Shown in pieces: positions 29,973-53,369 of a stretch of 64,000 nucleotides of DNA (positions within the stretch are counted from its first letter, which is position 1; every line of letters starts with the position of its first letter). The DNA is taken from positions 3,034,226 through 3,098,225 of the forward strand of contig CBDEHK010000001.1 of assembly GCA_965238305.1 (NCBI GenBank). Direction: 5' to 3'. This DNA comes from Alphaproteobacteria bacterium (GTDB lineage Bacteria; Pseudomonadota; Alphaproteobacteria; GCA-2731375). The notes below the pieces were generated by a model. That model was not told where the DNA came from. It worked only from the letters and a program-made list of their open reading frames with translations, and made no database searches. Position numbers and translations under genes: made by a program.

Positions 29973-30317
29973 ATGTTTCGTATTGTAAGTTTGATTTTTG
30001 TATCAGCCTGTTTGTTCGCGACGAGCGGATGCGTTCGCGTGGGCGACAATATGGAAGTCATTGGCGAAAATATGACTGGTGGCGACTGCGACTGGTCGCG
30101 TTATGTCGAAGGTAAGAATTTTTGCCGGCATGAAAAACCGACGGCCATCGCCTACGAACCGTTATATTGCTACAAAAGTGTTGGCGCGGTTGATTGCTAT
30201 AATCAACCGCAACCTGGTCGTCGTTTGGTCGGGCAAAACAAAATACCAAATGATATGGTCGCTAAATCAGCAGATAATTCTGACAAAATGGCTAAATCGC
30301 AAAACTCGACGGAGTAG
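29973..30317 (+). CDS. Cys-rich lipoprotein of unknown function
   Basis: Lipobox FATSGC and six further Cys. Contains repeat copy A just after the lipobox. Confidence 0.5.
   Translation: MFRIVSLIFVSACLFATSGCVRVGDNMEVIGENMTGGDCDWSRYVEGKNFCRHEKPTAIAYEPLYCYKSVGAVDCYNQPQPGRRLVGQNKIPNDMVAKSADNSDKMAKSQNSTE
30036..30071 (+). repeat. 36-bp imperfect direct repeat, copy A
   Basis: cgcgtgggcgacaatatggaagtcattggcgaaaat. 33/36 identical to 34663-34698. Confidence 0.85.
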
Positions 30318-30426
30318 GGTTGGTATTAGGTATCGAGATCAACATCCGCGTTCTAATCAGGGATGAACCTTGGGCCCGACTTGATCGATAGGTAACAGAT
30401 TGTACCGGACACGTGGGTAGGCGCCG

Positions 30427-31875
30427 TCAGGCCACGACAGCCGACGGTGTTTTGTTTCCAGCAAGGTTACAGCGGGCATTCCAGCTATGGTTCCATGCCT
30501 CGAGATCCTTGGCGGGAACCGGTTTCGAGATATAATAACCTTGCGCATGATTGCAGCCGAGATCGGCCAAAGTTGCCCAATCTTCATGGCTTTCAATCCC
30601 TTCCGCCACAACTGTCAAATCCAGTTTGTGAGCAAGATCGATCATTGAACGGACAATGGCCAGATCCTCTTTGTGAATATACATTTTGGCGACAAAAGAC
30701 CGGTCGATCTTCATTTCCTGCAAGGGCAGATCGCTCAGGTAGGCAAGCGAGGAATAGCCGGTGCCGAAATCATCGATCGAAATTGCCACGCCCAGCGCCG
30801 CCAGCTGATTCAACGCCCGTACCGAGGCCTCTGGGTCGGCCATTAACGCAGTCTCGGTCACTTCGAACACCAAATACTCTGACAATTGGCGCCATTCGCT
30901 TAAAAATTCGATAATATCGTCCACGAGCGCCGGGTCATGCAGACTTCGCGGTGACAAGTTGACGGCGACCGCGTGCTTTATTCCGCTGGCCTGCCATAAC
31001 ATGATCTGCCGAACCGCCATGGCTACAGTTTTTCTGGTAAACGGCATGATCAACGAACTACTCTCGGCCAGCGGAATGAAATCGTCCGGCATGATTAAGC
31101 CTTTTTCAGGATGGCGCCAGCGAACCAGCGCCTCAAGGCCGCTGACATTCAATGTATTCATGTCAATCTTTGGTTGATAATAAAACTCCAACTGATCTTG
31201 CTTGACCGCATTTCTCAGATCGCTCGCGAAGAAATGCGGTCTTTGTGGAATAACACCATCTTGTGTGTCGTCATGGAAGCGAAAGCCACCGCCTCGTCGC
31301 TTGGCCTGGTACATTGCCCGGTCGGCCTTGCCGAGCAAAGTGACGAGATCGTCACCGTCATCGGGATACTGCGCCACCCCTATACTGGCTCCCACATCGA
31401 CTAACTGTTCTCCAAATTGGATTGGTAGCTGGACAACTTCAACAAGCTCCTGGGCAACTCTCGAAGCGTTTGGTATTCGACTTTCCAACGGTAGGACAAA
31501 GGCAAATTCGTCGCCGCCCATGCGCGCAACAGTGTCCGAGCTTCGTAGGCGTTGTTTGATACGTTTCGCGACGGTTTGCAGCACCTTGTCACCGGCTTCA
31601 TGTCCTAAGGTGTCATTAATCTCCTTGAACCGGTTTAGATCCATCAGCAAGATGAGAAGCGGTTGCTTTTTGCGATACGCCGCCTCGCGGGCCAGCTCGA
31701 AACGGTCCTGGTAGAGAGTTCGATTGGCCAAGCCGGTCAAGTCATCGTACAGGCTCAAACGCTCTAGCCCCTCGTTGGCGATAGTCAGCTCGTTCGTCAA
31801 CTCAGTGACACTGCGGTAGGTCTCCGCGAGTTCGGCTTCCAGTGCGGCGATTTTGGCGGATTGATCCGGCATCAT
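30427..31875 (-). CDS. GGDEF-EAL domain protein with N-terminal coiled coil
   Basis: RMGGDEFAF (GGDEF) followed by an EAL domain (EALVRW...). 4-nt overlap with the upstream PP2C gene. Confidence 0.9.
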   Translation of the reverse strand: MMPDQSAKIAALEAELAETYRSVTELTNELTIANEGLERLSLYDDLTGLANRTLYQDRFELAREAAYRKKQPLLILLMDLNRFKEINDTLGHEAGDKVLQTVAKRIKQRLRSSDTVARMGGDEFAFVLPLESRIPNASRVAQELVEVVQLPIQFGEQLVDVGASIGVAQYPDDGDDLVTLLGKADRAMYQAKRRGGGFRFHDDTQDGVIPQRPHFFASDLRNAVKQDQLEFYYQPKIDMNTLNVSGLEALVRWRHPEKGLIMPDDFIPLAESSSLIMPFTRKTVAMAVRQIMLWQASGIKHAVAVNLSPRSLHDPALVDDIIEFLSEWRQLSEYLVFEVTETALMADPEASVRALNQLAALGVAISIDDFGTGYSSLAYLSDLPLQEMKIDRSFVAKMYIHKEDLAIVRSMIDLAHKLDLTVVAEGIESHEDWATLADLGCNHAQGYYISKPVPAKDLEAWNHSWNARCNLAGNKTPSAVVA

Positions 31876-32899
31876 AACGTCTCCGTCGCGACGACAACTG
31901 TGGCGTCGTCATTGCTTTTGGCGAAATTGCGCATCAAGTAATGGCCGATCGAAGTGGGGCTCTCGACGTCATCGGGAGACTGCTCACGCAGATCCCACTG
32001 GCCCGTGATGCCATCGGTGTAGATCAATAGGGTGCCGCCTTCGGGCCAAACACTTTCGTTCACACGAAGTTTGGGCAAGGACCCCATGCCCAATACGCCT
32101 GGTCGGGTCATCAGTTGCGAACCGCCGACTGGGTATACGCGGGCCGCAACGTTACCGACCCCGACGTGGATCAGGCGGCGTTCAGGGACGGACACCCACA
32201 CCAGGGTGGCGGCGGCGCCTCGGGTGCCGCGCAGAACCTGGTGAAGGTCGCGGATAAGGTCCTCAGGATTTTTTTCCGGTTTGCCCGAATGTGCTCCATC
32301 GCGGCATCGCTGGCCCGCGCTGCCTCGGGACCGTGGCCCAAGCCATCTGCGACCGCGACCAATAGGCCGGCTTGATCTTCGTAAACGAAATAACCATCAC
32401 CGTTGGATTTTTCCCCAATGTAAGGGCGGGAATTGGCGCTGTATACAAAGCGTGCCGTTGTGCAATCGCGGCGCGTCCATTTTCTAACCGTAATGGAGGT
32501 TCCGACGTCCAAGGTCTCGTCTCCGGTTTGGCCATTCGCGACGCAAGAGCGGATTTCGAATTCGTCCATCAACCGCCGAACGGCGCCGAGCCCGCAACCG
32601 GTTGACCCTTGGCTTGACCAGTGATCGTTCAGCGCGGCCTGCAGATCGGCAATACCCGGACCTCTGTCTCTGGACGAAATTTCAATTCCGACGGTGATGT
32701 CGCTGTTACAATCGGAAACTGTAATTTCTCCGTCGACGGTTCGGTGACGCACCAAGTTCGTGGCTAGTTCCGTCGCCGCTGTCGCAGCTTCCGCCACCGC
32801 TTGGTCGTTCAATCCCGTGCCAAGCGCAATCCGCCGAACTTCGCGGCGGACATGGCCGACGTCTCCATCGGTGCGTACGGGTATTACGACGCCAACCAT
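31872..32899 (-). pseudogene. RsbT-like GHKL Ser kinase domain fused to PP2C (RsbX/RsbU-like) phosphatase, interrupted by a 1-nt frameshift
   Basis: The N-terminus has TELATNLV, DRGPGIAD and GCGLGAVRRLMDEF (RsbT/RsbW-like). The PP2C motifs VAVADGLGHG ... RGAAATLV ... VGVGNV ... IYTDGI are split between two frames. The frames converge at the T7 tract 32269-32275 (A7 on the coding strand). Confidence 0.75.
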
Positions 32900-33279
32900 T
32901 TTACGATTTCTACCCGTGTGCCTTCGCCGATCACCGATTCGATCTGGAAGTCGTCGCTTAACCGCCGGGCGCCGGGCAACCCCTGGCCCAGGCTATTGGC
33001 AGTGCTGTAGCCTTCGCCCATCGCCCGTTCGATATCCGGGATGCCCGGGCCCTGATCGGTGAAGATGCAACGCACGCCGCACCTGTCATCGCCATTGACT
33101 GGGACGACTTGCATTTCGCCGCCGCCGCCATGAACCAAGGTGTTGCGGGCCAGTTCGCTGACTGCCGTGGCGACCCGGGTCTTGTCGATCATCGAGAACG
33201 CCAGATCGGCCGCAACCTCGCGGGCGACGCTGCGTGCGCGAACGATGTCGTCCTCGCCCCTTATTTCAATCAGCTGCAT
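32884..33279 (-). CDS. rsbT: stressosome Ser/Thr kinase RsbT homolog
   Basis: Near-collinear with B. subtilis RsbT: SELARN, DQGPGIPD, GYSTANSLGQGLPGARRL, GEGT. Confidence 0.9.
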   Translation of the reverse strand: MQLIEIRGEDDIVRARSVAREVAADLAFSMIDKTRVATAVSELARNTLVHGGGGEMQVVPVNGDDRCGVRCIFTDQGPGIPDIERAMGEGYSTANSLGQGLPGARRLSDDFQIESVIGEGTRVEIVKWLAS

Positions 33280-33700
33280 CCAATTGATCCTGCGATTGTA
33301 GAATATTATCATGGCCGTTTGGCGGCGCTTCCGGCGTCGTCCTTTCTAACCGGTACCCCAGCGATTCGAGACCCAATTCCAGGGTTTGACAGGTATTGAT
33401 GTCAGGCAGGCCCAGCCCCATTTCGATCATCGTAATCGCCACCACCGGCTGCATGCCGACCAGGCTCACCTCGGTGTTCATCAACTTTGCCATACAGGCG
33501 GTCTCGGTGAGCACGCGGCCGATGTAGGAATCGACTAGCTCCAGGCTAGATATGTCTATCAATAAGGCGTTCGCATCGTGTTCCTGGATGCACTGCAGGA
33601 TAAGTTCCTGCAGCGCCGTCGCGACCCGGTCGTTCAGCTCCTGCTGGATCGAGACCAGAAGAAGGTCTCCGATCCTGAGTACGGGTATCTCGGACATCAT
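33266..33700 (-). CDS. rsbS: STAS-domain protein RsbS homolog
   Basis: Single STAS domain, 144 aa. 4-nt overlap with rsbR. Confidence 0.8.
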   Translation of the reverse strand: MMSEIPVLRIGDLLLVSIQQELNDRVATALQELILQCIQEHDANALLIDISSLELVDSYIGRVLTETACMAKLMNTEVSLVGMQPVVAITMIEMGLGLPDINTCQTLELGLESLGYRLERTTPEAPPNGHDNILQSQDQLDAAD

Positions 33701-34590
33701 GCGGCTCGCGATATGCCGTCAACCAATTCTATGGCGAGCTTTAGGCCTTCTTGCAGTGTGCTGCGAGTTTCCAAGGTTGAAAGATCCAGTCCGAGATTGA
33801 CGATCGCGACAGCTGTGGCGGGGGAGATGCCGGTCAGAATGCATTTGCCCCCCATCAGCACGATGGAAGACGCCATCGAAATCAGGTGGTTCGCGACCAT
33901 AGTGTCCATTACCGGAACACCTGTAATATCGATGATAATGACCCGGGCATTTTCTTTGCTTAGACGTTGTAGCGTTCTTTCGGTGCAGTTTTGCATGCGC
34001 CGGCTGTCTAGCGTGCCAATCAGTGGCAACACCAGCACGCCCTGCCATACGGCGATGGCAGGGGTGGAGAGCTCTTCAACTTCTTGCGCCTTGCGCTCGA
34101 TCTCCGCCTTGATCTGCTTGATCACCGTCAGATCACGCATGATGGCGGTCAATATGCGCCGCCCCTGCACATGAAACTCTCTGATACCGATTTCGAGAGG
34201 GATCAACGTGCCATCCCTGTGCAGCCCATTGATCTCTCGCCAACTGGCCCGATCACCGGTGGCATCGGCTTCGGGATGGTCCGCCGCATTTTTGTCCTGT
34301 ATGAGTTTCGGGACGTCGGGCACCAGCTTCTCGAAGTTCAGTTCGGCGGCCTCCTCTTTCGAATAATCGAACAGCTTTTCCGCGGCCTGGTTGAAAAGTT
34401 CCACGCCGCCCTGGTCATCGAAAGCGATCATCGCATCGGCTGAAAACTCGATCAGTTCATTGTAATATTCCGTTGACCATTGCGCTGATGTGACCGGCGT
34501 TTTGGCAGAACCGTTGCCCCGTGCCTGCACAGTGTCTTGTACTTGGTTGCTCATCGTGAAAAACCTCTGTGACATGCTTTGTATTTGCAA
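33697..34590 (-). CDS. rsbR: RsbR-like stressosome sensor (N-terminal PAS-like domain plus C-terminal STAS)
   Basis: The C-terminal STAS domain has a conserved Thr-rich region. The N-terminal half resembles a PAS fold. Confidence 0.8.
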   Translation of the reverse strand: MQIQSMSQRFFTMSNQVQDTVQARGNGSAKTPVTSAQWSTEYYNELIEFSADAMIAFDDQGGVELFNQAAEKLFDYSKEEAAELNFEKLVPDVPKLIQDKNAADHPEADATGDRASWREINGLHRDGTLIPLEIGIREFHVQGRRILTAIMRDLTVIKQIKAEIERKAQEVEELSTPAIAVWQGVLVLPLIGTLDSRRMQNCTERTLQRLSKENARVIIIDITGVPVMDTMVANHLISMASSIVLMGGKCILTGISPATAVAIVNLGLDLSTLETRSTLQEGLKLAIELVDGISRAA

Positions 34591-34662
34591 AAAATCTAAT
34601 ATGAATTTATCTGCAGTTACTTAACAATTGATTTATAACTACGTATTTTGTGCGGAATGAAA

Positions 34663-34698
34663 CGCGTGGGTGACAATATGGAAATCATCGGCGAAAAT
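34663..34698 (+). repeat. 36-bp imperfect direct repeat, copy B (remnant of the lipoprotein 5' coding region)
   Basis: cgcgtgggtgacaatatggaaatcatcggcgaaaat. Upstream bases also partly resemble the signal-peptide region of copy A. Confidence 0.85.
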
Positions 34699-34801
34699 TT
34701 TGGCCCGGACGCGATGCAGTTACTTAGGGAACAACGACTGGAAAGTTTCCATGGGAAGCGGAGCGGCGTCTGGTCAGGTTTCCCTATCGACCAAAGAAAA
34801 T

Positions 34802-34878
34802 TGGCGACCCCTGCAGGACTTGAACCTGCGACCTCAAGATTAGAAATCTCGCGCTCTATCCAGCTGAGCTAAGGGGCC
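34802..34878 (-). tRNA. tRNA-Arg (TCT)
   Basis: 77-nt cloverleaf with anticodon loop UUUCUAA. Similar to E. coli argU. Confidence 0.9.
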
Positions 34879-34947
34879 ATGTGCGGACATTTGTATTGTT
34901 TCGACAAATTGTTCATCAGTGCAATTCCGATACGCCGCCCGGCAGGG

Positions 34948-35274
34948 TTAAGGGCGCGGAAGCGGATCGGTGCCGGGACCTCTAACCGAAGTCGGGGCAA
35001 AATTATCCGCGTATGTTTTTACCCGAAACTTACGTTGGCGCGGCAATTTGACCAGATATGAAATGTCATTGCGTTCGCAGTAAGCTACGGCTTCTTCTTC
35101 TGTTTCAAAGCGCATTCGTAGCTGCTGGTTGGTATCTTCGGAGCCGGTCCAACCCATCAACGGTTCGACGTGACGTGGTGATGACTGTTCGAATTCCAAC
35201 ACCCATTTTTTCGAATTGCCGTGGCCGGACTGCATCGTCGATTTAGCCGGTTGGAAAATTATTGCATTACGCAC
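34948..35274 (-). CDS. ETC complex I subunit (NDUFS4-like) conserved-region protein
   Basis: IFQPAKSTMQSGHG...WVLEFE signature of the bacterial NDUFS4-like family. Confidence 0.75.
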   Translation of the reverse strand: MRNAIIFQPAKSTMQSGHGNSKKWVLEFEQSSPRHVEPLMGWTGSEDTNQQLRMRFETEEEAVAYCERNDISYLVKLPRQRKFRVKTYADNFAPTSVRGPGTDPLPRP

Positions 35275-41492: not shown

Positions 41493-41795
41493 ATGGAAGT
41501 ACAATTCGACAGTGCGATGTTTGATGTGACTGCGATTGCGCTCCTGATTGCAATGGGCTTGGCATTGGCGAGAGCATTTCTCGGACCGACGGTGTTTGAT
41601 CGGGTGCTGGCGGTCAATAGTTTCGGGACCAAAACCGTTGTGTTGATTGCCGTCCTAGGGTTTGTGATGGGTCGACCGGATTTTATGGACATCGCACTGA
41701 TTTATGCCTTGATGAACTTTATCGGAACGATTGCAGTATTGAAATTCGTCAAATATGGCGATTTTTCACGGGCCAGTGGAGATAACGAAGGATGA
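41493..41795 (+). CDS. mrpF: Mrp/Mnh antiporter subunit F
   Basis: About 100 aa with 3 TM helices in an MrpF pattern. Confidence 0.75.
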   Translation: MEVQFDSAMFDVTAIALLIAMGLALARAFLGPTVFDRVLAVNSFGTKTVVLIAVLGFVMGRPDFMDIALIYALMNFIGTIAVLKFVKYGDFSRASGDNEG

Positions 41796-42133
41796 GCTTT
41801 GTTGTTGACACGATATCTTGGTTGCTTCTGTTAACGGGGTCTTTCGTCGTCGTTATTGGCGCTTTTGGTCTGATACGAATGCCGGATTTCTACACCCGGC
41901 TGCACCCCGCTGGCGTGACGGACACGTTGGGCGCTGGCTTGATTATTCTTGGCCTTATCTTCCAAGTCGGCTTTAACTTAATCGCCGTGAAGCTTGTTCT
42001 GATTCTTCTTTTTCTATTTTTCACCAGTCCAACATCATCCCACGCAACAGCACGCGCGGCGATGGCGGACGGGCTCAAGCCACTACTTTCTGGCAAGAAA
42101 AATAAATCTTCGGATCAAGACACGTCGGATTAG
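41792..42133 (+). CDS. mrpG: Mrp/Mnh antiporter subunit G
   Basis: RMPDFYTRLHP motif. 4-nt overlap with mrpF. Confidence 0.8.
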   Translation: MSFVVDTISWLLLLTGSFVVVIGAFGLIRMPDFYTRLHPAGVTDTLGAGLIILGLIFQVGFNLIAVKLVLILLFLFFTSPTSSHATARAAMADGLKPLLSGKKNKSSDQDTSD

Positions 42134-42140
42134 TATGTAG

Positions 42141-42722
42141 ATGTTCATACAGTTCATCATAAATATAACCCTTTTGGCATTTATGGGCGCTACGGCAATC
42201 GCAATTCTGCGGGTACGCAACTTATTCGCCGTTGCCATGTTGTCCGGAATTTACAGCTTCCTGGCGGCAACTGTGTTTGTGTTATTAGATGCCGTCGATG
42301 TCGCCTTTACAGAAGCAGCCGTTGGTGCGGGCGTGTCGACAGTATTGATGTTAGGTGCATTGTCTCTCATCGGCGAAAATCGTGAAAAAGTATCCATCCA
42401 TACACCGATATTGCCCTTAATCGTGGTGACTATAACCGGCGTTGCGTTGCTTTATGGGGTTAGCGACATGCCCGCCTTCGCCGATCCGGAGGCCCCAGCG
42501 AATAAACATGTCGCGCCTTATTATTTGGAAGAAAGTAAAAAAGAAATCGGTGTTCCCAATGTGGTGACGTCTATTCTGTCGAGTTATAGAGGCTACGATA
42601 CGTTGGGTGAGACAGGGGTCATATTTACCGCCGGTATCGCTGTCATGTCGTTGCTGGGCGGAACTTTTTGGCGACGCCGGCGACCACGTAAAAAGGAAGA
42701 TCCAACTGGAGACGGAGGATGA
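42141..42722 (+). CDS. MbhD/MbhE-like (DUF4040 / MrpA C-terminal-like) membrane subunit
   Basis: TM protein with a VVTSILSSYRGYDTLGE region resembling MrpA-C/MbhD-E. Confidence 0.55.
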   Translation: MFIQFIINITLLAFMGATAIAILRVRNLFAVAMLSGIYSFLAATVFVLLDAVDVAFTEAAVGAGVSTVLMLGALSLIGENREKVSIHTPILPLIVVTITGVALLYGVSDMPAFADPEAPANKHVAPYYLEESKKEIGVPNVVTSILSSYRGYDTLGETGVIFTAGIAVMSLLGGTFWRRRRPRKKEDPTGDGG

Positions 42723-43156
42723 AGCATCATCGTGTCCTTCGCATCGTTTCAAAGTTTCTTATCCCGTTGATCATGATTTTTGGGCTGTATGTGCAGTTTC
42801 ATGGAGATTATGGACCTGGTGGCGGCTTCCAAGCTGGCGTGATATTTGCGGCCGGCATCATCCTCTATGCGCTTGTATTCGGACTGGATCATGCCATGAA
42901 AGTGGTCCCGCCCCGCATTATTACCAAGTTTGTCGCACTTGGATTGTTGTTGTACACCGGCGTCGGCATTGCCGGGATGCTGCTGGGCGGGGAGTTCTTG
43001 AATTACTCGGTTCTGGGCGCGACCCAACAAAGTGGTCAGCACCTTGGCATTTTATTGATCGAACTTGGCGTTGGCACCACAGTTGCCGCGACGATCACCA
43101 CGATATTCTATTATTTTGCTGGCTATCGCGGTTTGGGCGACGAGGATCAGCCATGA
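42719..43156 (+). CDS. mrpB: Mrp/Mnh antiporter subunit B
   Basis: GGGFQAGVI signature. 4-nt overlap with the upstream gene. Confidence 0.8.
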   Translation: MKHHRVLRIVSKFLIPLIMIFGLYVQFHGDYGPGGGFQAGVIFAAGIILYALVFGLDHAMKVVPPRIITKFVALGLLLYTGVGIAGMLLGGEFLNYSVLGATQQSGQHLGILLIELGVGTTVAATITTIFYYFAGYRGLGDEDQP

Positions 43157-43509
43157 ATTTGATCATCGCTCACTATAATTACTGGATCGTGATCCTGCTG
43201 ATGATGCTCGGTTTTTATATCGTCATCGCACAAGGTAATCTGATTAAGAAACTGATTGGTTTGAACCTCTTCCAAACCTCTGTCTTTCTGCTTTATATTT
43301 CTATCTCGAAAGTTGAAGGCGGAACCGCGCCGATTTTTGACGATCGTTTCAACGTCTTTTCCAACCCCCTGCCCCACGTTTTGATCCTAACGGCAATCGT
43401 TGTCGGTGTCGCAACCATGGCGGTCGGCCTCGCGTTGATTATACGCATTCGCGATGCCTATGGCACGATCGAGGAAGATGAGATCAATCGACAGGATGAT
43501 ACCCCATGA
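43153..43509 (+). CDS. mrpC: Mrp antiporter subunit C (NuoK-like)
   Basis: 118 aa with 3 TM helices and NuoK/MrpC conserved acidic positions. ATGA overlap with mrpB. Confidence 0.8.
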   Translation: MNLIIAHYNYWIVILLMMLGFYIVIAQGNLIKKLIGLNLFQTSVFLLYISISKVEGGTAPIFDDRFNVFSNPLPHVLILTAIVVGVATMAVGLALIIRIRDAYGTIEEDEINRQDDTP

Positions 43510-44987
43510 TTGTCGATAATCTTCCTGCCATATTGATCATTCTGCCGCTGCTGGGGGCGCCGGTTTGCTTGTTATTAGGGCGCGGTGATTGGTCTTGGGG
43601 GCTCAGCCTGATCGTGACCTGGCTTTCATTTGCGGTCGCCATCGCGCTTTTAATTATCGTCTGGAACGGCGAAGTGATCGAATATCCATTGGGTGGATGG
43701 TCGGCCCCATGGGGCATCGTTTACCGGCTGGACCCGGCGAACGCATTCGTCCTCCTTATCGTCTCCGCTATCAGTGCAATACTACTACCTTACTGTTGGC
43801 GCAGTGTGCAGCGGGAAGTACCGGAAAATCGGCAACATCTATTTTATTCGCTCTATCTACTGTGCCAGACCGGTCTCATGGGTATCGCCATCACCGGCGA
43901 CGCATTTAACGTTTTTGTATTCTTGGAAATTTCCTCACTCTCAAGTTATGCCTTGATTGCACTCGGCAGTCATCGCAAGGCCCTGACGTCCGCTTTCACT
44001 TATCTGATTATGGGGACGATTGGCGCCACCTTCATCCTGATTGGCATTGGCTTGATCTACATGATGACCGGCACCCTTAACATGACTGATATGCATGACA
44101 AGATGGCAGCTATTGGGGAGAAAGCACCAATAATGGCGGCCTTTGCATTCATTACCGTTGGTGTGGTGCTGAAACTTGCGCTCTTCCCACTGCATCTATG
44201 GATGCCTAACGCCTATGCTTATGCGCCAAGTGCGGTCTCTGCCTTTATCGCAGCGACGGCAACTAAAGTGTCGATCTATGTGCTGCTGCGGTTCGTCTTT
44301 ACGGTGTTTGGTCAGGATTTGGCTTTCGGGGCCGCGCCCCTCAATTATGTCCTGATGGTGCCAGCGATCATTGCTATGTTTGCCGGCTCTTTGGTGGCGA
44401 TCTTTCAGACCGACATCAAACGCATGTTAGCTTATTCCAGTGTGGCGCAAATTGGTTACATCGTCCTCGCCATCAGTTTAGTCAGTCTCGGCGGCATAAC
44501 GGCCAGTTTCCTGCATATCTTCAATCACGCTTTGATGAAAGCTGCCTTATTTGGCGTTATGGGTTGCATATTTTTTCGCCTATCGTCGGTGCGATTAAAC
44601 GACATGGCTGGTTTGGCGAAAGAAATGCCGTTGACCTTCGCCTGTTTCCTAATTGGTGGGATGAGTTTAATCGGCGTGCCGCTAACCGGTGGATTTATTT
44701 CAAAATTCTATCTTATCAAAGCAACTTTGGAACTTGATTTTTGGTGGCTTAGCTTCTTGATCCTAGCCTCCAGTTTGCTCGCAGTCATCTATATCTGGCG
44801 CATTGTTGAAGTGATGTATTTCAAACCGGCCCCTGAAGGCCGGGTGCCAGTGAAAGAAGCGCCACTATCAATGCTGATCCCGACCATTATCCTGGCGGCG
44901 GCAAATATTTATTTTGGAATCGAGACTAGCTTGCCCATAGGCGTATCGGAAGCGGCAGCTAAAGCATTGTTAGGAGGGGCATGGTGA
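43506..44987 (+). CDS. mrpD: Mrp antiporter subunit D (NuoN/M-like antiporter-like subunit)
   Basis: Proton_antipo_M fold (LHLWMPNAYA...). Confidence 0.85.
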   Translation: MIVDNLPAILIILPLLGAPVCLLLGRGDWSWGLSLIVTWLSFAVAIALLIIVWNGEVIEYPLGGWSAPWGIVYRLDPANAFVLLIVSAISAILLPYCWRSVQREVPENRQHLFYSLYLLCQTGLMGIAITGDAFNVFVFLEISSLSSYALIALGSHRKALTSAFTYLIMGTIGATFILIGIGLIYMMTGTLNMTDMHDKMAAIGEKAPIMAAFAFITVGVVLKLALFPLHLWMPNAYAYAPSAVSAFIAATATKVSIYVLLRFVFTVFGQDLAFGAAPLNYVLMVPAIIAMFAGSLVAIFQTDIKRMLAYSSVAQIGYIVLAISLVSLGGITASFLHIFNHALMKAALFGVMGCIFFRLSSVRLNDMAGLAKEMPLTFACFLIGGMSLIGVPLTGGFISKFYLIKATLELDFWWLSFLILASSLLAVIYIWRIVEVMYFKPAPEGRVPVKEAPLSMLIPTIILAAANIYFGIETSLPIGVSEAAAKALLGGAW

Positions 44988-46450
44988 ATAGCGCGATCCT
45001 CATGCTCTGGGCGATTGCCATACCGTTGATTGCAGCGGTCATTATTCCGCTTTTCCACGAACATCCTAATCGCCGTGAAGGCGTTACTTTGATTGCAACG
45101 GCGATCTTATTTGCAGTCGTTTTGGTGTTGATAACCGGCGATAACCGGTTTGAGTTCGCCCGCATAGAACTTATTGAGCCGATCCCCAATATTGCCATCG
45201 CTTTCCGTTTGGAACCATTGGGGGCGATTTTTGCCGCTGTCGCGTCATTATTATGGATCGTCAGTTCATTGTTCGGGATCGGTTATATGCGCGGCAATAA
45301 TGAGCCGCGACAGACCCGTTTTTACATTGCATTTGCGATCGCCATCGGCAGCACCATGGGCATTTGTTTTGCCGGCAATCTGCTGACTTTGTTCATCTTC
45401 TACGAAGCGCTGACGATTTCGACTTATCCTCTGGTTGCCCATCACAAGAACGATGAAGCGGTTAAGTCCGGCCGTACCTATCTCGGCATTTTGATGGGCA
45501 CATCAATTGGGTTTTTGCTGTTCGCGATAGTTATCACTTATGTCGAAACCGGGACGTTGGATTTTGTCGACGGCGGCATCTTGTCCGGACGGGTGACGCC
45601 GTTCACAGGAAGTGTGCTGTTGTTGTTATTCATGTACGGCGTCGGTAAAGCTGCCTTGATGCCGCTCCACAGATGGTTGCCGGCGGCGATGGTCGCGCCG
45701 ACCCCAGTGAGCGCACTTTTGCATGCCGTTGCGGTCGTGAAAGCGGGTGTTTTCTCCGTCGTGAAAATTGCCGTCTATGTCTTTGGCGTCGATTATCTAC
45801 GCGAACTTTCAGCTTCTTCGATCATTCTTTATGCCGCTGGTTTCACTATTATTATCGCTTCCATTGTTGCGCTTCGTCAGGACAATTTGAAACGACGCTT
45901 GGCCTATTCGACGATCAGTCAGCTTTCCTATGTCATTTTGGCCATGTTCATCCTGACGCCGATGTCGACAACTGGCGCGGCGTTACATATTGCTGTCCAC
46001 GCCTTCGGCAAAATCACCCTTTTTATGGCAGCCGGCGCGATCTATACAGCAGCCCACAAAACTCTGGTCAGTCAGTTGGACGGAATTGGTAAACGTATGC
46101 CTTGGACGATGACGGCCTTTGCCGTCGGATCCCTTTCGATGATCGGCGTGCCGCCGGCTGCGGGATTTCTGAGTAAATGGTATATGTTGCTCGGCGCGTT
46201 AGAGAGCGAACAGATTTTCGCTATTGGCGTCATCGTGATTTCGACATTGCTGAATGCGGGATATTTTCTACCGGTCGTTTATGCTGCATTTTTGAAACCG
46301 GAAAAGATCGATAGCAATCATCCCGTGGAACATGGCGAAGCGCCAATATTTATTGTCATCGCCCTAACCGCAACCGCGATCCTTACAGTCTTACTGTTTC
46401 TGTTCCCTGGATTTGTCTTGGAACTGGCAAAAAATGTCGCCGGGGGGTAG
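44981..46450 (+). CDS. second MrpD/NuoM-like antiporter-like subunit
   Basis: LHRWLPAAMVAPTPVSALLHAVAVVKAGVF is a NuoM/MrpD hallmark. Confidence 0.85.
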   Translation: MVNSAILMLWAIAIPLIAAVIIPLFHEHPNRREGVTLIATAILFAVVLVLITGDNRFEFARIELIEPIPNIAIAFRLEPLGAIFAAVASLLWIVSSLFGIGYMRGNNEPRQTRFYIAFAIAIGSTMGICFAGNLLTLFIFYEALTISTYPLVAHHKNDEAVKSGRTYLGILMGTSIGFLLFAIVITYVETGTLDFVDGGILSGRVTPFTGSVLLLLFMYGVGKAALMPLHRWLPAAMVAPTPVSALLHAVAVVKAGVFSVVKIAVYVFGVDYLRELSASSIILYAAGFTIIIASIVALRQDNLKRRLAYSTISQLSYVILAMFILTPMSTTGAALHIAVHAFGKITLFMAAGAIYTAAHKTLVSQLDGIGKRMPWTMTAFAVGSLSMIGVPPAAGFLSKWYMLLGALESEQIFAIGVIVISTLLNAGYFLPVVYAAFLKPEKIDSNHPVEHGEAPIFIVIALTATAILTVLLFLFPGFVLELAKNVAGG

Positions 46451-46461
46451 AGGATATAGTC

Positions 46462-46728
46462 ATGTCAGATAACTCGTTGCATGAAGACAAACACTGGCTT
46501 ATCCGCCCACAAATCATCAGGTTATTGTGGCGAATTGGCCTATTTGTATTATTGCTTACCGTCCTCGCTGCCCTGACATATGAAGCGCATCCCTATTTCG
46601 GCTACGATGGCTGGTTCGCCTTTTATGCAACTTTCGGCTTTTTTTCCTGCGTGGGCATGGTGTTTTTCGCTAAATTCCTAGCTGTCTTTTTGAAACGCCC
46701 AGACGACTATTACGAGAAGGATCAATAA
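46462..46728 (+). CDS. small two-TM membrane protein of unknown function
   Basis: 88 aa, positioned between the large antiporter-like genes. Confidence 0.4.
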   Translation: MSDNSLHEDKHWLIRPQIIRLLWRIGLFVLLLTVLAALTYEAHPYFGYDGWFAFYATFGFFSCVGMVFFAKFLAVFLKRPDDYYEKDQ

Positions 46729-46731
46729 GCG

Positions 46732-48411
46732 ATGCCGATCCCTCCCGCACTCATTATGTTCCTGGGCGCATTGATCATCGCTTTGTTGCGCGGGCCCCAG
46801 CGCAGTATCGTGGCGATGATTATCCCGATCCTGACACTGGCGACCATTTGGACCGTGCCGGATGGGGAAGTCATCAGTTTCACCTTCCTGGAGTATATTA
46901 TTGTCCCCTTGGAAGGGGATAAATTGTCGCGGTTGTTTGCCAGTATTTTCTCCCTCATGGCCTTCGCCGGTGCAATGTTCGCAGCAAAACAAAAAGAGCG
47001 GATGGAATTGCCAGCGGCGTTTGTCTATTCCGGGGCCGCGATCGGGGTCAGTTTAGCGGGCGATCTGATCACGATGTTCGTCTTTTGGGAGATTATGGCA
47101 GTCGCCTCGACGTTGGTGATCTGGTCGGCCCGTACCAAACAAGCCGAAAGCGCATCGTTGCGTTACGTCTTAATTCATCTGTTTGGTGGTGTGATCCTGA
47201 TGATCGGTGTTGTCGGGCAAGTGCTGGAAACAGGATCGACGGAATTTGGCGCCGTTCATCTGGAAAGTTTTTCTAGTTGGTGCATGCTGGTGGGTTTCCT
47301 GATCAATGCCGGCGCTCCGCCCTTCTCCGCTTGGCTTCCGGATGCTTATCCAGAAGCGTCCTTTTCTGGCATGGTGTTTCTATCCGCTTTTACGACAAAA
47401 ACCGCGGTTTATGTATTGATCCGAGCTTTTCCAGGCACGGAAGTCTTAATCCCCATCGGCGTCTTTATGATTTTCTATGGCATCATTTATGCGCTACTGG
47501 AAAATGATATGCGGCGAATATTGGCCTATTCCATTATCAATCAGGTCGGCTTCATGGTCACAGGAATTGGCATCGGCGGAGAGATGGCGCTGAATGGTGC
47601 GGCGGCCCATGCCTTTACCCACATAATATATAAAGCCTTGTTGTTGATGTCGGCGGGGTCGGTGATGATGATGACCGGCGGGGTGCGGAAATGTTCCAGT
47701 CTCGGTGGCTTATTTCAGTCCATGCCCTATACCGCAACAATGGGCATAATCGGGGCGTTGGCAATTTCCTCATTTCCTTTTACGTCCGGATTTGTGTCGA
47801 AGTCGATGATCACGCAGGGTGCGATTGATGCCCACATGATGTGGGTTTGGCTGGCTTTGGCCGCCGCATCAGCCGGTGTCTTCCTGCATGCGGGCATTAA
47901 ATTCCCCTGGTTTGTCTTCTTCCAGAAAGATTCCGGCTTGCGTCCGTCGGAGCCGCCGTGGAGCATGCGGATCGCCATGGGGCTATTTGCCTTTCTTTGC
48001 ATCGCCATAGGCGTTTACCCCGATCCCCTTTATGCATTGCTGCCTTATGCCGTAAATTACGTACCTTATACAGTTGGTCACGTGGTCGAGATGCTGCAGC
48101 TCTTATTATTCTCAGGCCTCGCCTTCTTCCTGTTTTTGCCATATATGAAGCGAACGTTGACACTTACCCTCGATTTGGACTGGTTTTATCGTCGTTTGTT
48201 CAAGAACCTCTTTAAGGATGCGGCGGCCCAGGCAGGTAAAGCTCATGCGACCTCCTGGACCGATGGTGAACTGCGGTTGAGGCAGTTGATTGCGCGAATA
48301 TCCCGCCATCACGGCGAACAGGGCATATTGGCCCGGACCTGGCCGACCGGCAGTATGGTGCTATGGGCGGCCGCATTATTAGGCGGCTATCTAATCCTTT
48401 ATTATCGGTGA
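46732..48411 (+). CDS. MrpA/NuoL-like antiporter-like subunit (short form)
   Basis: AWLPDAY motif. 559 aa, so it lacks a long MrpA C-terminal extension. Confidence 0.85.
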   Translation: MPIPPALIMFLGALIIALLRGPQRSIVAMIIPILTLATIWTVPDGEVISFTFLEYIIVPLEGDKLSRLFASIFSLMAFAGAMFAAKQKERMELPAAFVYSGAAIGVSLAGDLITMFVFWEIMAVASTLVIWSARTKQAESASLRYVLIHLFGGVILMIGVVGQVLETGSTEFGAVHLESFSSWCMLVGFLINAGAPPFSAWLPDAYPEASFSGMVFLSAFTTKTAVYVLIRAFPGTEVLIPIGVFMIFYGIIYALLENDMRRILAYSIINQVGFMVTGIGIGGEMALNGAAAHAFTHIIYKALLLMSAGSVMMMTGGVRKCSSLGGLFQSMPYTATMGIIGALAISSFPFTSGFVSKSMITQGAIDAHMMWVWLALAAASAGVFLHAGIKFPWFVFFQKDSGLRPSEPPWSMRIAMGLFAFLCIAIGVYPDPLYALLPYAVNYVPYTVGHVVEMLQLLLFSGLAFFLFLPYMKRTLTLTLDLDWFYRRLFKNLFKDAAAQAGKAHATSWTDGELRLRQLIARISRHHGEQGILARTWPTGSMVLWAAALLGGYLILYYR

Positions 48412-48845
48412 TGGTGTCGACAGTGGTCGCCTACCTGAATTTTCACATCTTTGCGGCGTTGCTGAATGGGTTGGCACTAGGTTCAATGATATTTTTCGCC
48501 GCCATCGTGACGCCAAGTGTTTTTAAGGCTTTGGAAGGCGAGCATCGAAGTCGTTATCTGGAAACAATATTTCCGCTCTATTTTCGCGCGATGGCCGGAT
48601 TGGAAGCTATTGCCGGGATATTGATTATCTATCGGATAGAAGGTTGGGCCTTGTTAGCCGTTGCCGCCGCATTCATGTTTTCCGACCAAGCCCTGCGGCC
48701 AACCATTAATCGGCTTCGCGCCGGCCATTATGCTGGCGATGCGGACACAAGTGTGCGATTTAAGAAGATGCACCGCCTCAGTGTGCTCATCAATCTGGCG
48801 CAAATTTTTATCTCTCTGATTGTTTTTTTCCGTTTAGCTGTCTAG
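48411..48845 (+). CDS. four-TM membrane protein (DUF4149-like), translationally coupled
   Basis: Its ATG overlaps the upstream TGA stop (tgATGg arrangement), so the two genes share 1 nt (48411). The 144-aa hydrophobic start is inferred inside listed ORF 48363-48845. Confidence 0.5.
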   Translation: MVSTVVAYLNFHIFAALLNGLALGSMIFFAAIVTPSVFKALEGEHRSRYLETIFPLYFRAMAGLEAIAGILIIYRIEGWALLAVAAAFMFSDQALRPTINRLRAGHYAGDADTSVRFKKMHRLSVLINLAQIFISLIVFFRLAV

Positions 48846-48875
48846 AACCAAACCTCAACTCAATTCGAAGGAATT

Positions 48876-49502
48876 TTGACAATGGATATGACCGGCGAAT
48901 ACCGCATCAAAGCCAGCCGCGAACAGGTTTGGGCCGCCCTCAATGATCCAGAAATCCTGAAACAGAGCATACCCGGTTGCGATAGTCTCGAACAAACCTC
49001 TGATAATGCTTTTGCCGCCACTGTGACAACCAAAGTAGGTCCGGTGAAAGCCAAATTCAAAGGCGAAGTCGAGCTTAGCGATATCGACCCGCCCAATGGC
49101 TATACAATCTCCGGTGAAGGCAAAGGCGGCGCTGCGGGATTTGCCAAAGGCGGTGCAAAAGTAAAACTTGAGCAAGACGGCAGCGAAACTATTCTTTCTT
49201 ATGAAGTTAACGCCAATGTTGGCGGTAAAATGGCTCAGTTGGGTGCTCGCCTCATCGATGGTACGGCAAAAAAACTATCGGCGGAGTTTTTCCAGAAATT
49301 TGCCGAACTAGCGGAAGCGTCAGAAGAAGCTGCGGCAGCAGATATGAAGCCAGAAGTAGTGGCACCAGCAGCAGAACAAATAACCGATGAACACGTGCCG
49401 CTGGAAATGCGTGAAAGCGCAAACTGGAATGGCTTGCCATCCTGGATATGGATTGGTGGAGCTATTGTCGCGGTCGTTATCGTGTTGTGGCTCGCGACCT
49501 AA
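48876..49502 (+). CDS. coxG: CoxG (SRPBCC) with C-terminal transmembrane anchor
   Basis: SRPBCC/CoxG fold. C-terminal LPSWIWIGGAIVAVVIVLWLAT helix. Confidence 0.8.
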   Translation: MTMDMTGEYRIKASREQVWAALNDPEILKQSIPGCDSLEQTSDNAFAATVTTKVGPVKAKFKGEVELSDIDPPNGYTISGEGKGGAAGFAKGGAKVKLEQDGSETILSYEVNANVGGKMAQLGARLIDGTAKKLSAEFFQKFAELAEASEEAAAADMKPEVVAPAAEQITDEHVPLEMRESANWNGLPSWIWIGGAIVAVVIVLWLAT

Positions 49503-49675
49503 CCTTTATGTGATATCTCCCGCTAATTTAATGTCTATGCTTGACGTCGCGCCCACATTCTTCGAGACTGTTAGGCAAGGAGCGACTTTTGAGGGCAATG
49601 AAGCGTTTTCATGCTATTGATTAAGTCTAATAATCTCCGACTTGAAAGCTAAAACAAAAAAAAGGGAGGATCGGT

Positions 49676-50143
49676 ATGCCATCGGTTTCTATGACCGTGA
49701 ACGGGCAATCCGTCACGAAAGACGTAGAGGAACGCACACTCCTCGTTCAATTTCTTCGCGAAACACTTGCTCTCACCGGCACCCATGTCGGTTGCGATAC
49801 CAGTCAATGCGGCGCCTGTGTCGTCGACGTGAATGGGAAAGCGATTAAATCATGTACGGCGCTAGCGGTCATGAATGATGGGGCGGACGTGACCACGATC
49901 GAAGGGCTTGCCAATGGTGCTGAATTGCATCCAATGCAGGAAGCTTTCCGCGATAATCATGGCTTGCAATGCGGTTTCTGCACACCGGGTATGGTGATGA
50001 CCGGGATCGACATGGCCAATCGCCATGCCAGCCTGGACGAAGCAACTGTACGCCAGGAATTGGAAGGTAATATCTGCCGCTGCACCGGTTACCACAATAT
50101 TGTCAAATCGATATTGGCGGGCGCTGAAGCGATGCGCGGTTAG
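49676..50143 (+). CDS. coxS: Mo-hydroxylase small subunit (2x [2Fe-2S])
   Basis: CDTSQCGAC ferredoxin-type motif and CRCTGY second-cluster motif. AGGGAGG RBS. Confidence 0.9.
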
Positions 50144-50187
50144 ACCAAACCTACGGAATTCAACCATTCAAAAAGGGGAGAAATGCC

Positions 50188-52542: not shown

Positions 52543-52574
52543 GTTTAGGGCTTAGATTAAAGGAGCAATGAAAG

Positions 52575-53369
52575 ATGTATAACTTCTCCTATCATCGTCC
52601 GGCCAGTGTGGCGGACGCTGTTAATGCCCTTAACGGGGCAGAAGATGGAAAATTTGTCGCTGGTGGTCAAACTTTGCTGCCGACCATGAAACAACGTTTG
52701 GCAGCGCCCAGTGACTTAGTCGATCTATCCGGCGTGGCGGACCTGACTGGCATCACAGTAGCCGATGGTAACGTGACCATTGGGGCCATGACCTGCCATG
52801 CGGACGTCGCTAATTCGGCAGATGTGCAGAATGCGATACCGGCGTTGGCAGGTTTGGCTGGGCGGATTGGTGATCCGGCGGTGCGCCACAAGGGTACGCT
52901 TGGTGGCTCGATCGCAAATGCAGATCCGGCGGCTGATTATCCGGCCGCGGTTTGTGCGTTAAGCGCGACTGTCAACACCAACAAACGGTCGATTGCTGGT
53001 AATGAATTTTTCACCGATCTTTTCGAAACCGCGTTGGAGGAAGATGAAATCATTACCAGTGTTTCCTTTCCTGTTCCCGACGCCGCCGCCTATATGAAGT
53101 TCGAAAACCCGGCGTCGCGATATGCAATTGTCGGTGTGTTCGTTGCTAAAACATCCGGTGGTGTGCAAGTCGGCGTCACCGGTGCAACTTCACATGCCCA
53201 TCGCGGTCCGAGGCTGGAAGCGGCGTTGAATGCCAACTTCTCGCCAGATGCTGTCGATAGTGTCGAACTGCCGGTTGATATTATGAATTCAGACATTCAT
53301 GCCAGTTCTGAATATCGGGCCCATTTGGTTAAGGTCATGGCCAAACGCGCCGTCGCCGCTTGCGGTTAA
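52575..53369 (+). CDS. coxM: Mo-hydroxylase FAD-binding medium subunit
   Basis: FAD_binding_5 and CO_deh_flav_C fold. 264 aa. Confidence 0.85.
   Translation: MYNFSYHRPASVADAVNALNGAEDGKFVAGGQTLLPTMKQRLAAPSDLVDLSGVADLTGITVADGNVTIGAMTCHADVANSADVQNAIPALAGLAGRIGDPAVRHKGTLGGSIANADPAADYPAAVCALSATVNTNKRSIAGNEFFTDLFETALEEDEIITSVSFPVPDAAAYMKFENPASRYAIVGVFVAKTSGGVQVGVTGATSHAHRGPRLEAALNANFSPDAVDSVELPVDIMNSDIHASSEYRAHLVKVMAKRAVAACG

What the first reader, a model, noticed from the sequence alone, without database searches (positions are those of the whole stretch)
31872..32899. RsbT-like kinase fused to PP2C phosphatase, broken by a 1-nt frameshift in an A7 homopolymer
The ORF at 32171-32899 encodes a second RsbT/RsbW-like GHKL kinase domain. 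It runs into the start of a PP2C domain (VAVADGLGHG...AAMEHIRANRKK). The rest of the PP2C domain (NPEDLIRDLHQVLRGTRGAAATLV...VGVGNV...IYTDGI) is in another frame (ORF 31872-32201). The two frames converge exactly at the T7 run at 32269-32275, which is A7 on the coding strand. An A8 tract would give one continuous protein of about 340 aa. This could be a sequencing homopolymer error, a genuine inactivating mutation of the feedback phosphatase, or slippage-prone phase variation. The kinase-PP2C fusion itself is unusual for an RsbX-position gene.
Basis: seen in the sequence. Interest (0 to 1): 0.55.

Follow-up and report, generated by a model that had tools for sequence, protein, structure and literature searches.

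The report
Frameshifted stressosome kinase-phosphatase gene
A stress-signalling gene that joins a kinase-like domain to an RsbX-type phosphatase is split by one missing base in a run of seven A's; the fused gene is common in bacteria, and the break looks like an assembly error or a very recent mutation.

Summary
On the minus strand, ORF 32899..32171 and the -1 frame running to the stop at 31872 meet at an A7 tract (T7 at 32269-32275). Adding one A gives a 342-aa protein with a HATPase_c_2 (GHKL) domain and a SpoIIE/PP2C domain. It aligns without a gap at the junction to ~340-aa homologues. The phosphatase half is RsbX-type: its closest solved structures are Moorella MtX (3ZT9) and B. subtilis RsbX (3W40).

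The gene is fourth in an rsbR-rsbS-rsbT-X module, followed by a GGDEF-EAL gene. The fusion is not unusual. More than 6,000 database proteins share it, and it held the same position in all five other loci inspected, in several phyla.

The stretch after the break shows no decay: 13 of 13 invariant residues are kept and identity to the nearest orthologue is 62% on both sides. No orthologue has an A-run there, and no stimulatory RNA structure follows the tract. Programmed recoding is therefore unlikely.

What remains is a one-base shortfall with no detectable age: an assembly homopolymer undercall (slightly favoured) or a very recent loss-of-function mutation. Only reads or resequencing can decide. 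Interest is low.

The parts
33697..34590 (-). rsbR-like sensor gene (PAS + STAS), first gene of the module
   Evidence: Pfam PAS/PAS_9 at residues 42-155 and STAS at 179-281. Same architecture and position in L001, L004, L007 and L009.
33266..33700 (-). rsbS-like single STAS-domain scaffold gene
   Evidence: Pfam STAS, E 1e-10; conserved second position in the related loci.
32884..33312 (-). rsbT-like GHKL switch-kinase gene. The true start is probably the second ATG at 33279, giving 131 aa like the homologues.
   Evidence: Pfam HATPase_c / HATPase_c_2. Best solved relatives are SpoIIAB anti-sigma F kinases. Homologues are 129-134 aa.
32276..32899 (-). 5' part of the GHKL-RsbX fusion gene, read in frame 0 (residues 1-208): whole GHKL domain plus the first third of the PP2C domain, including metal-binding motifs D168 and D185
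   Evidence: Invariant E44/N48 (N box), D78-G80-G82 (G1), G101-G103-G105 (G2), NGD166-168 and DG185-186.
32269..32275 (-). A7 homopolymer (T7 on the + strand) where the two reading frames meet. A8 would read Lys-Lys-Asn.
   Evidence: It lies in the loop between helices 191-206 and 212-222 of the predicted PP2C domain. The tract is absent from five orthologues.
32171..32268 (-). Out-of-frame tail of the as-assembled 242-aa product (about 32 non-homologous residues), with the premature stop at 32171-32173
31872..32268 (-). 3' part of the fusion gene in the -1 frame (residues 211-342): the rest of the PP2C domain, with the GN motif (G249 N250), D296-G297 and D331-D332. The stop TGA at 31872-31874 overlaps the ATG of the next gene.
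   Evidence: 13/13 invariant and 29/30 columns conserved at >=80% are retained, with 62.1% identity to P0002.
30427..31875 (-). GGDEF-EAL output gene (c-di-GMP synthesis/hydrolysis), fifth gene of the operon
   Evidence: Pfam GGDEF at residues 42-195 (E 7e-47) and EAL at 219-452 (E 5e-74). Same gene after the fusion in L001 and L004.

Best explanation
The locus is an ordinary five-gene stressosome operon: rsbR (PAS-STAS), rsbS (STAS), rsbT (GHKL kinase), a GHKL-RsbX fusion, and a GGDEF-EAL output enzyme. The fourth gene belongs to a large, widespread family of ~340-aa proteins in which an RsbT-paralogous ATP-binding domain is fused to an RsbX-type PP2C phosphatase. By analogy with B. subtilis RsbX and Moorella MtX, the phosphatase domain removes the phosphates that RsbT puts on RsbS/RsbR. 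RsbT can then be recaptured and signalling to the c-di-GMP enzyme is reset. The fused GHKL domain probably docks on, or acts on, the same STAS partners. These functional steps are inferred, not shown. The reading frame is broken only by a one-base shortfall (A7 instead of A8) in a lineage-specific Lys-Lys-Asn tract. Everything downstream is perfectly preserved, so the break has no detectable evolutionary age. I judge it most likely a homopolymer undercall in the consensus of this single-contig 4.9-Mb assembly, meaning the real gene is intact.
For: The frames meet at the A7 tract and +1 A restores 342 aa. Both domains are found, with SpoIIE spanning the junction. The alignment to 19 homologues has no gap at the junction, with invariant D296, W302 and D331-D332 after the shift. 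The GHG-TRG spacing of 43 residues is identical to five orthologues (for the orthologues; the query's spacing counted by hand). The C-terminal part retains 13/13 invariant and 29/30 conserved residues, and its identity to P0002 is 62.1% against 61.7% for the N-terminal part. The PP2C half is closest to MtX 3ZT9 (E 9e-33; TM 0.91, rmsd 2.0 A) and RsbX 3W40 (E 2e-27; TM 0.84). The GHKL half resembles SpoIIAB/RsbW and is 31% identical to the neighbouring RsbT. Synteny R-S-T-fusion-output holds in 5/5 loci. The natural stop overlaps the start of the downstream gene, as expected for an intact coupled operon. Single-base deletion in the longest homopolymer of a gene is the classic residual error of long-read consensus (my own knowledge). 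None of the 10 exact window proteins found in the collection has a Logan (read-level assembly) source, so no independent short-read assembly of this organism turned up in the collection.
Against: The assembly does not look generally error-prone at homopolymers. The window has 15 runs of >=7 nt and 56 of >=6 nt. Of these, 10 and 36 lie well inside the ~59 long ORFs taken as genes, and none of them other than this tract breaks a frame. Three 8-nt runs were called elsewhere. A real A8-to-A7 replication slip would look identical. Loss-of-function mutations in rsbX and other stressosome regulators are known to arise readily in culture and in isolates (Listeria, PMC13068326). No reads, no second assembly and no close relative were available.
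Confidence: 0.5

Rival explanations
1. This is a genuine, very recent loss-of-function mutation. Replication slippage shortened A8 to A7 in this strain, giving a 242-aa product with an intact GHKL domain, a PP2C stump lacking D296 and D331/D332, and about 32 junk residues. Without the feedback phosphatase, RsbS/RsbR would stay phosphorylated and RsbT would stay free. The GGDEF-EAL output would then be locked in its stress state. Translational coupling to the downstream gene would also be lost, although that gene has its own GGAG Shine-Dalgarno sequence.
For: The sequence as given carries A7. Every other homopolymer that lies inside one of the window's long ORFs is in frame, so the assembly looks accurate. 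Homopolymers are also biological indel hotspots (PMC1088944, discussion). rsbX and other rsb loss-of-function alleles arise and are selected in Listeria isolates and during passage (PMC13068326). The metal-binding motifs D296 and D331/D332 lie after the shift, so the lesion would inactivate the enzyme.
Against: There is no second lesion and no relaxation of conservation downstream, so the event would have to be extremely recent. The rest of the operon is intact. No population or strain data exist to show the allele.
Confidence: 0.38
2. This is programmed or tolerated recoding. RNA polymerase slippage (+1 A) or -1 ribosomal slippage of tRNA-Lys on AAA-AAA-A yields the same ...RKKNPED... full-length protein from a fraction of expression events. 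The cell would then make both a stand-alone GHKL protein and some full-length kinase-phosphatase.
For: Both a -1 ribosomal shift on CGG-AAA-AAA-ATC and a +1 A transcript give exactly the homologous continuation (worked out). Slippage on 8-9 A runs is productive in some bacteria and rescues frameshifted genes (PMC1088944; the tssM A11 case, PMC4256274). The downstream frame is perfectly preserved.
Against: The A-run is absent at this position in all five orthologous genes examined, which have no frameshift there. All ~340-aa homologues are encoded in one frame. The 119 nt downstream fold no better than shuffles (z -1.0), and the only hairpin starts about 20 nt after the tract. The nearest GGAG lies 18 nt upstream of the tract (seen), farther than I recall being effective for -1 stimulation. 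A7 is shorter than the ~9-nt length at which selection against slippage-prone runs becomes evident in many genomes (PMC1088944). At best this would be low-level adventitious rescue, not a designed feature.
Confidence: 0.05
3. This is a phase-variable contingency switch. The tract toggles between A7 and A8 in the population, reversibly turning stressosome reset off and on.
For: A mononucleotide tract sits within a regulator whose loss changes a global output, and indels in such tracts are reversible in principle (inference only).
Against: A 7-8 nt tract is short for a high-frequency switch (my own knowledge). The tract is not conserved in orthologues. There is no enrichment of long tracts in this operon, where the only other run of 5 nt or more in the gene is A5. 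No population data could be found.
Confidence: 0.05

Closest known systems
Moorella thermoacetica MtX (PDB 3ZT9) and Bacillus subtilis RsbX (PDB 3W40), the stressosome feedback PP2C phosphatases
   Same: The PP2C domain (residues ~150-342 of the repaired protein) matches both by profile (E 9e-33 and 2e-27) and by predicted fold (TM 0.91 and 0.84). It carries the 'GN' motif-5 signature of RsbX-type group II PP2Cs (G249 N250; PMC4524716). It lies directly after rsbR-rsbS-rsbT. As in Moorella, the downstream output is a c-di-GMP enzyme (as cited in PMC12143880).
   Different: The solved MtX and RsbX chains are 193-199 aa and carry the PP2C domain only. Here a ~145-aa GHKL ATP-binding domain precedes the phosphatase. 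As assembled, the gene is frameshifted.
HATPase_c_2 + SpoIIE proteins of ~340 aa, which some sources name 'ATP-binding SpoIIE family protein phosphatase' (for example in Pseudobacteroides cellulosolvens)
   Same: Same two domains in the same order and at the same length. Identity is 35-62% over the full length. The position as fourth gene of R-S-T-X modules is the same in 5/5 loci.
   Different: Those genes are uninterrupted. This one needs one extra A. The nearest relative is only 62% identical, so this is a divergent lineage.
Mycobacterium tuberculosis Rv1364c (PDB 3KE6), an RsbU-type PP2C fused to an RsbW-type kinase
   Same: A PP2C phosphatase and a GHKL partner-switching kinase sit in one polypeptide. 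It was recovered by the fold search (ranks 45-46).
   Different: As I recall, the domain order there is the reverse (phosphatase before kinase) and there are extra sensor and STAS domains. The match is much weaker (E 1.5e-7, TM 0.43). It is not part of an rsbRST module.
Transcriptional-slippage rescue of interrupted genes (Citrobacter tssM A11; 9A/9T genes of Baranov et al. 2005)
   Same: A frame break sits exactly at a poly-A run, and adding one A to the mRNA would restore the full-length protein.
   Different: Those tracts are 9-11 nt and are conserved among homologues (PMC4256274, PMC1088944). This one is 7 nt and lineage-specific.

Membership tests
RsbX-type (group II, 'GN') PP2C phosphatase | Sequence-profile similarity to experimentally characterised RsbX/MtX | tested here: met
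   3ZT9 E 9.2e-33 and 3W40 E 1.9e-27, covering profile positions 150-342.
RsbX-type (group II, 'GN') PP2C phosphatase | PP2C fold matching RsbX/MtX | tested here: met
   AF2 model with pLDDT 85.7. Foldseek top hits are 3ZT9 (TMt 0.91, rmsd 2.0 A) and 3W40 (TMt 0.84).
RsbX-type (group II, 'GN') PP2C phosphatase | Full set of acidic metal-binding motifs (GD, DG, DG, DD) plus the GN motif 5, encoded in one reading frame | tested here: not met
   All motifs are present and invariant (D168, D185, G249-N250, D296, D331-D332). However, D296, D331/D332 and the GN motif lie in the -1 frame after the A7 tract. The requirement is met only if one A is added.
RsbX-type (group II, 'GN') PP2C phosphatase | Gene immediately downstream of rsbR-rsbS-rsbT (RSTX module) | tested here: met
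   Gene order 34590 to 30427 on the minus strand, with overlapping starts and stops.
RsbX-type (group II, 'GN') PP2C phosphatase | Dephosphorylates RsbS-P / RsbR-P | not testable with these tools
   Requires biochemistry.
GHKL serine kinases of partner-switching systems (RsbT/RsbW/SpoIIAB) | HATPase_c_2 domain above the Pfam threshold, with N, G1 and G2 ATP-binding boxes | tested here: met
   PF13581 scores 46.9 bits against a cutoff of 27.4. E44, N48, D78-G80-G82 and G101-G103-G105 are invariant in 20 sequences. The fold matches SpoIIAB at TMt 0.74-0.77. The domain is 31% identical to the adjacent RsbT.
GHKL serine kinases of partner-switching systems (RsbT/RsbW/SpoIIAB) | Phosphorylates a STAS-domain partner | not testable with these tools
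No paper on the fused form was found in the searched library.
~340-aa HATPase_c_2-SpoIIE fusion family | Collinear full-length alignment and conserved operon position | tested here: met
   97-100% query coverage for most of the listed hits. No gap at the junction. Fourth position in L001, L004/5, L006, L007/8 and L009.
Programmed frameshift / transcriptional slippage gene | Slippery tract and two-frame organisation conserved among homologues | tested here: not met
   None of five orthologues has an A-run at the site, and all are single-frame. All ~340-aa hits are single ORFs.
Programmed frameshift / transcriptional slippage gene | Stimulatory element (downstream structure at 5-9 nt, or a suitably spaced upstream SD-like sequence), or a tract of 9 nt or more | tested here: not met
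   Downstream fold z-score is -1.0, with 29/200 shuffles as stable, and the hairpin starts about 20 nt away. The tract is A7, against the 9-nt threshold in PMC1088944.
Phase-variable contingency locus | Tract-length polymorphism within or between populations | not testable with these tools
   No reads are available. No second copy of this species was found in the protein database, genome contigs or metagenome contigs.

The most novel reading that the evidence does not exclude
The A7 tract might be a real, maintained feature. Low-level RNA-polymerase or ribosome slippage, or reversible A7/A8 switching, would then let one gene yield both a stand-alone RsbT-like GHKL protein and a small, tunable amount of the full kinase-phosphatase, setting how fast this stressosome resets its c-di-GMP output. 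Separately, the fused GHKL-RsbX family itself (thousands of members at the RsbX position) seems uncharacterised in the literature I could search, which describes RsbX in RSTX modules as single-domain.
Probability: 0.05. Interest if true: 0.55.

Novelty: new member of a known kind. Interest (0 to 1): 0.15.

Why it matters
The finding matters little as it stands. It is one more member of an abundant, database-annotated family, carrying a single-base frame break that is either an assembly error or a fresh mutation. Practically, the two ORFs should be annotated as one gene, either frameshifted or corrected. If the A7 allele is real, this strain would be a natural feedback-phosphatase-null stressosome, with c-di-GMP signalling expected to be locked in the stress state. 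The more useful by-product concerns the family. A GHKL domain fused to RsbX is the rule in many rsbRST-X modules across phyla, yet the stressosome literature I could search treats RsbX as a single-domain protein. The role of that second kinase-like domain is an open, testable question.

Tried and rejected
- Source organism and other copies. An exact look-up of the 242-aa and 109-aa ORFs found them only on one 4,897,822-bp NCBI/ENA contig, unnamed. The look-up of encoding contigs had no record of them or of the GGDEF-EAL gene. The genome-contig scan returned only a 29%-identical Melioribacteraceae locus. A metagenome scan with the tract flanks, allowing 6-10 bases between them, found nothing. 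No orthologue above 62% identity and no population data were obtained.
- A CoxL protein at 90% identity or more led to an ENA metagenome contig. That contig is only 78% identical at the DNA level, so it is not the same species.
- Other possible homopolymer frame breaks in the window. Seventeen edit-and-merge candidates were found. For those I checked with Pfam or against the ORF list, the pairs are ordinary adjacent or overlapping genes: hisI/modA-like, Mrp/Mbh subunits and DUF4149. The remainder were not examined one by one.
- Recoding signals. The downstream RNA fold is not significant, and there is no conserved tract.
- The promoter/terminator scan of 30200-35000 gave nothing informative on the minus strand.
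- Literature on the fused GHKL-RsbX form. Four searches found no description of it.
- I considered that the shift might lie elsewhere than in the A-run. I rejected this because homology on both sides confines it to CGG-AAAAAAA-TCC, and only +1 nt restores the conserved 43-residue spacing.
Full report
**1. Observation**

On the minus strand, an ATG at 32899 opens a 242-aa ORF that ends at a stop at 32171-32173. A second ORF in the -1 frame (GTG at 32201) runs to a TGA at 31872-31874. The second frame is in fact open from about 50 codons upstream of a T7 run at 32269-32275, which is A7 on the coding strand. Inserting one A gives a continuous 342-aa protein reading ...AAMEHIRANRKKNPEDLIRDLHQVLRGTRG....

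**2. What the repaired protein is**

- Pfam finds HATPase_c_2 (residues 13-121, 46.9 bits) and SpoIIE (177-338, 40.2 bits). The SpoIIE match spans the junction.
- A profile of the family hits the solved stressosome phosphatases best: Moorella MtX 3ZT9 (E 9e-33) and B. subtilis RsbX 3W40 (E 2e-27). The N-terminal half hits SpoIIAB and RsbW (E ~1e-6).
- An AlphaFold2 model (pLDDT 85.7, pTM 0.74) superposes on 3ZT9 with TM 0.91 and rmsd 2.0 A, and on 3W40 with TM 0.84. Its N-domain superposes on SpoIIAB with TM 0.74-0.77.
- The invariant G249-N250 is the 'GN' motif 5 that characterises RsbX-type group II PP2Cs (PMC4524716).
- The GHKL domain keeps the N box (E44, N48), G1 (D78xGxG) and G2 (G101xGxG) invariant across 20 family members. 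It is 31% identical to the adjacent RsbT-like protein (E 1e-18).

**3. Context**

The gene is fourth in a tightly packed minus-strand operon:

| Position | Coordinates | Gene |
|---|---|---|
| 1 | 34590-33697 | PAS-STAS (RsbR-like) |
| 2 | 33700-33266 | STAS (RsbS-like) |
| 3 | 33312-32884 | GHKL kinase (RsbT-like) |
| 4 | 32899-31872 | GHKL-RsbX fusion |
| 5 | 31875-30427 | GGDEF-EAL |

The fusion gene's natural stop overlaps the ATG of the GGDEF-EAL gene. This is the rsbRSTX module with a c-di-GMP output. That layout has been described for Moorella and many Gram-negative bacteria (PMC9237108; Quin et al. 2012 as cited in PMC12143880).

**4. Is the fusion unusual? No.**

- The repaired protein found 6,347 proteins at E<=1e-10 among the 8,000 candidates scored. 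Nearly all of the 120 listed are 320-365 aa with both domains. Where named, they are called 'SpoIIE family protein phosphatase', 'ATP-binding SpoIIE family protein phosphatase' or 'anti-sigma regulatory factor (Ser/Thr protein kinase)'. They come from Alphaproteobacteria, Clostridia, Eremiobacterota, Planctomycetes, Nitrospirales and others.
- In every locus I opened, the fusion is the fourth gene after R-S-T and precedes an output gene:
  - L001 (62% identity): GGDEF-EAL output.
  - L004/L005 (Alphaproteobacteria MAG): GGDEF-EAL output.
  - L006 (Pseudobacteroides cellulosolvens): histidine kinase output.
  - L007/L008: histidine kinase output.
  - L009: GGDEF output.
- The published description of RSTX modules that I could read calls RsbX a single-domain PP2C (PMC9237108), and the solved MtX and RsbX chains are PP2C-only. 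I found no paper on the fused form. The family is abundant and annotated but apparently uncharacterised.

**5. The frame break**

- The alignment to 19 full-length homologues has no gap at the junction.
- The distance from the GHG motif to the TRG motif is 43 residues, exactly as in five orthologues, and only if one base is added. The orthologue spacing comes; I counted the query's spacing by hand from the translation.
- The site falls in a variable loop between two helices of the PP2C domain (residues 207-211).
- Two of the four acidic metal-binding motifs (D296-G297 and D331-D332) and the GN motif lie after the shift. The as-assembled 242-aa product could not be an active phosphatase.
- Downstream of the shift the sequence shows no decay. 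It keeps 13/13 residues invariant in the other 19 sequences and 29/30 of those conserved at 80% or more. Its identity to the nearest orthologue is 62.1%, against 61.7% upstream.

The lesion is therefore an artefact, very recent, or bypassed during expression.

**6. Programmed recoding**

A -1 ribosomal slip on CGG-AAA-AAA-ATC, or one extra A in the mRNA, would give exactly the homologous continuation (derived). The other evidence argues against a programmed event:

- None of five orthologues has an A-run at this position, and all are single-frame.
- The 119 nt downstream fold no better than shuffled controls (z -1.0), and the hairpin starts about 20 nt away.
- The nearest GGAG is 18 nt upstream.
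- A7 is below the ~9-nt length at which selection against slippage-prone runs becomes evident in many genomes, although 8 A's can be productive in some bacteria (PMC1088944). The known rescue cases use 9-11 A's that are conserved (PMC4256274).

Low-level adventitious rescue is possible. A programmed feature is unlikely (about 5%).

**7. Artefact or real mutation**

No reads, second assembly or close relative could be found. The ORFs occur only on one 4.9-Mb NCBI/ENA contig. The next relative is 62% identical. The genome and metagenome scans were empty.

The window itself looks clean:

- It holds about 59 long ORFs taken as genes.
- 10 of the 15 runs of >=7 nt and 36 of the 56 runs of >=6 nt lie well inside those ORFs. 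None of them other than this tract breaks a frame.
- The other 'mergeable' ORF pairs that I checked are ordinary neighbouring genes.

This argues against a grossly error-prone assembly. It does not exclude a single residual homopolymer undercall, which is the typical last error of long-read consensus (my own knowledge). Real rsbX and rsb loss-of-function alleles do arise readily (PMC13068326). The complete absence of decay favours the artefact slightly. My estimates are artefact about 0.50, genuine recent mutation about 0.38, recoding about 0.05, and phase variation about 0.05.

**8. Mechanism if intact (inferred from RsbX/MtX)**

- RsbT phosphorylates RsbS and RsbR on stress and leaves the stressosome to act on the GGDEF-EAL enzyme.
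- The PP2C domain of the fusion dephosphorylates RsbS/RsbR so that RsbT is recaptured.
- The fused RsbT-like GHKL domain may target the phosphatase to the STAS core, or add a second kinase activity.

If the A7 allele is real, I expect no reset, persistently free RsbT and a locked output. Translational coupling to the GGDEF-EAL gene would be lost, though that gene has its own GGAG about 5 nt upstream.

**9. Verdict**

This is a new, divergent member of a known and abundant family with an ordinary single-base frame break. Interest is low (0.15). The only decisive test is reads or resequencing.

Noticed in passing
L001, L004/L005, L006, L007/L008, L009 (fourth gene of each R-S-T module): A ~340-aa GHKL + RsbX-type PP2C fusion sits at the RsbX position in distant phyla, followed by different outputs (GGDEF-EAL, GGDEF, histidine kinases). 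The stressosome papers I could read describe RsbX as a single-domain PP2C, so the role of the extra kinase-like domain seems unstudied.
   Followed up: partly
window 30427-31875 (-): The GGDEF-EAL output protein has only a ~40-residue N-terminal helix before the GGDEF domain and no recognisable RsbU_N domain. By eye, the GGDEF motif, an RxxD site just upstream of it, and the EAL motif are all present. How RsbT would contact it is unclear.
   Followed up: no
window 32884-33312 (-): The RsbT-like ORF as listed (142 aa, overlapping rsbS by 47 nt) is longer than its homologues (129-134 aa). The second ATG at 33279 (MQLIEIRG...) would give 131 aa. The 142-aa and the 144-aa RsbS translations are not in the protein collection, which suggests gene callers used other start codons.
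   Followed up: partly
L001 556-1722 and L007 1462-2061: Transposase genes (IS110-family in L001, a DDE IS240-type fragment in L007) lie directly upstream of the stressosome operon in two related loci. This hints that the module moves horizontally. In the window, a tRNA-Arg(tct) at 34802-34878 lies directly upstream of the operon.
   Followed up: no
window 34948-35274 (-): A small protein matches NDUS4 (PF04800, E 4e-35), the NADH dehydrogenase Fe-S protein 4 family. I recall this family as typical of Alphaproteobacteria and mitochondria, which is the only hint to the taxon of the unnamed source genome.
   Followed up: no
window 41792-48411 (+): An Mrp/Mbh-like multisubunit cation/proton antiporter cluster. 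Confirmed parts are the MbhD/MbhE and NuoK-like (Oxidored_q2) subunits and two Proton_antipo_M subunits (44981-46450 and 46732-48411). The 493-aa ORF at 43506-44987 is probably another large subunit but was not scanned. The long overlapping ORFs here mimic split genes but are ordinary neighbours.
   Followed up: partly
window 48363-53369 (+); L003: A DUF4149 gene is followed by what looks like a CoxG/CoxS/CoxL/CoxM-like molybdenum hydroxylase cluster. The Pfam domains for the cluster were seen only on the related contig L003. The region is 78% identical in DNA to a 286-kb ENA metagenome contig (ERZ25072999), and the large subunit is at least 90% identical in protein. That contig is the closest relative of the source organism seen in any search.
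   Followed up: partly
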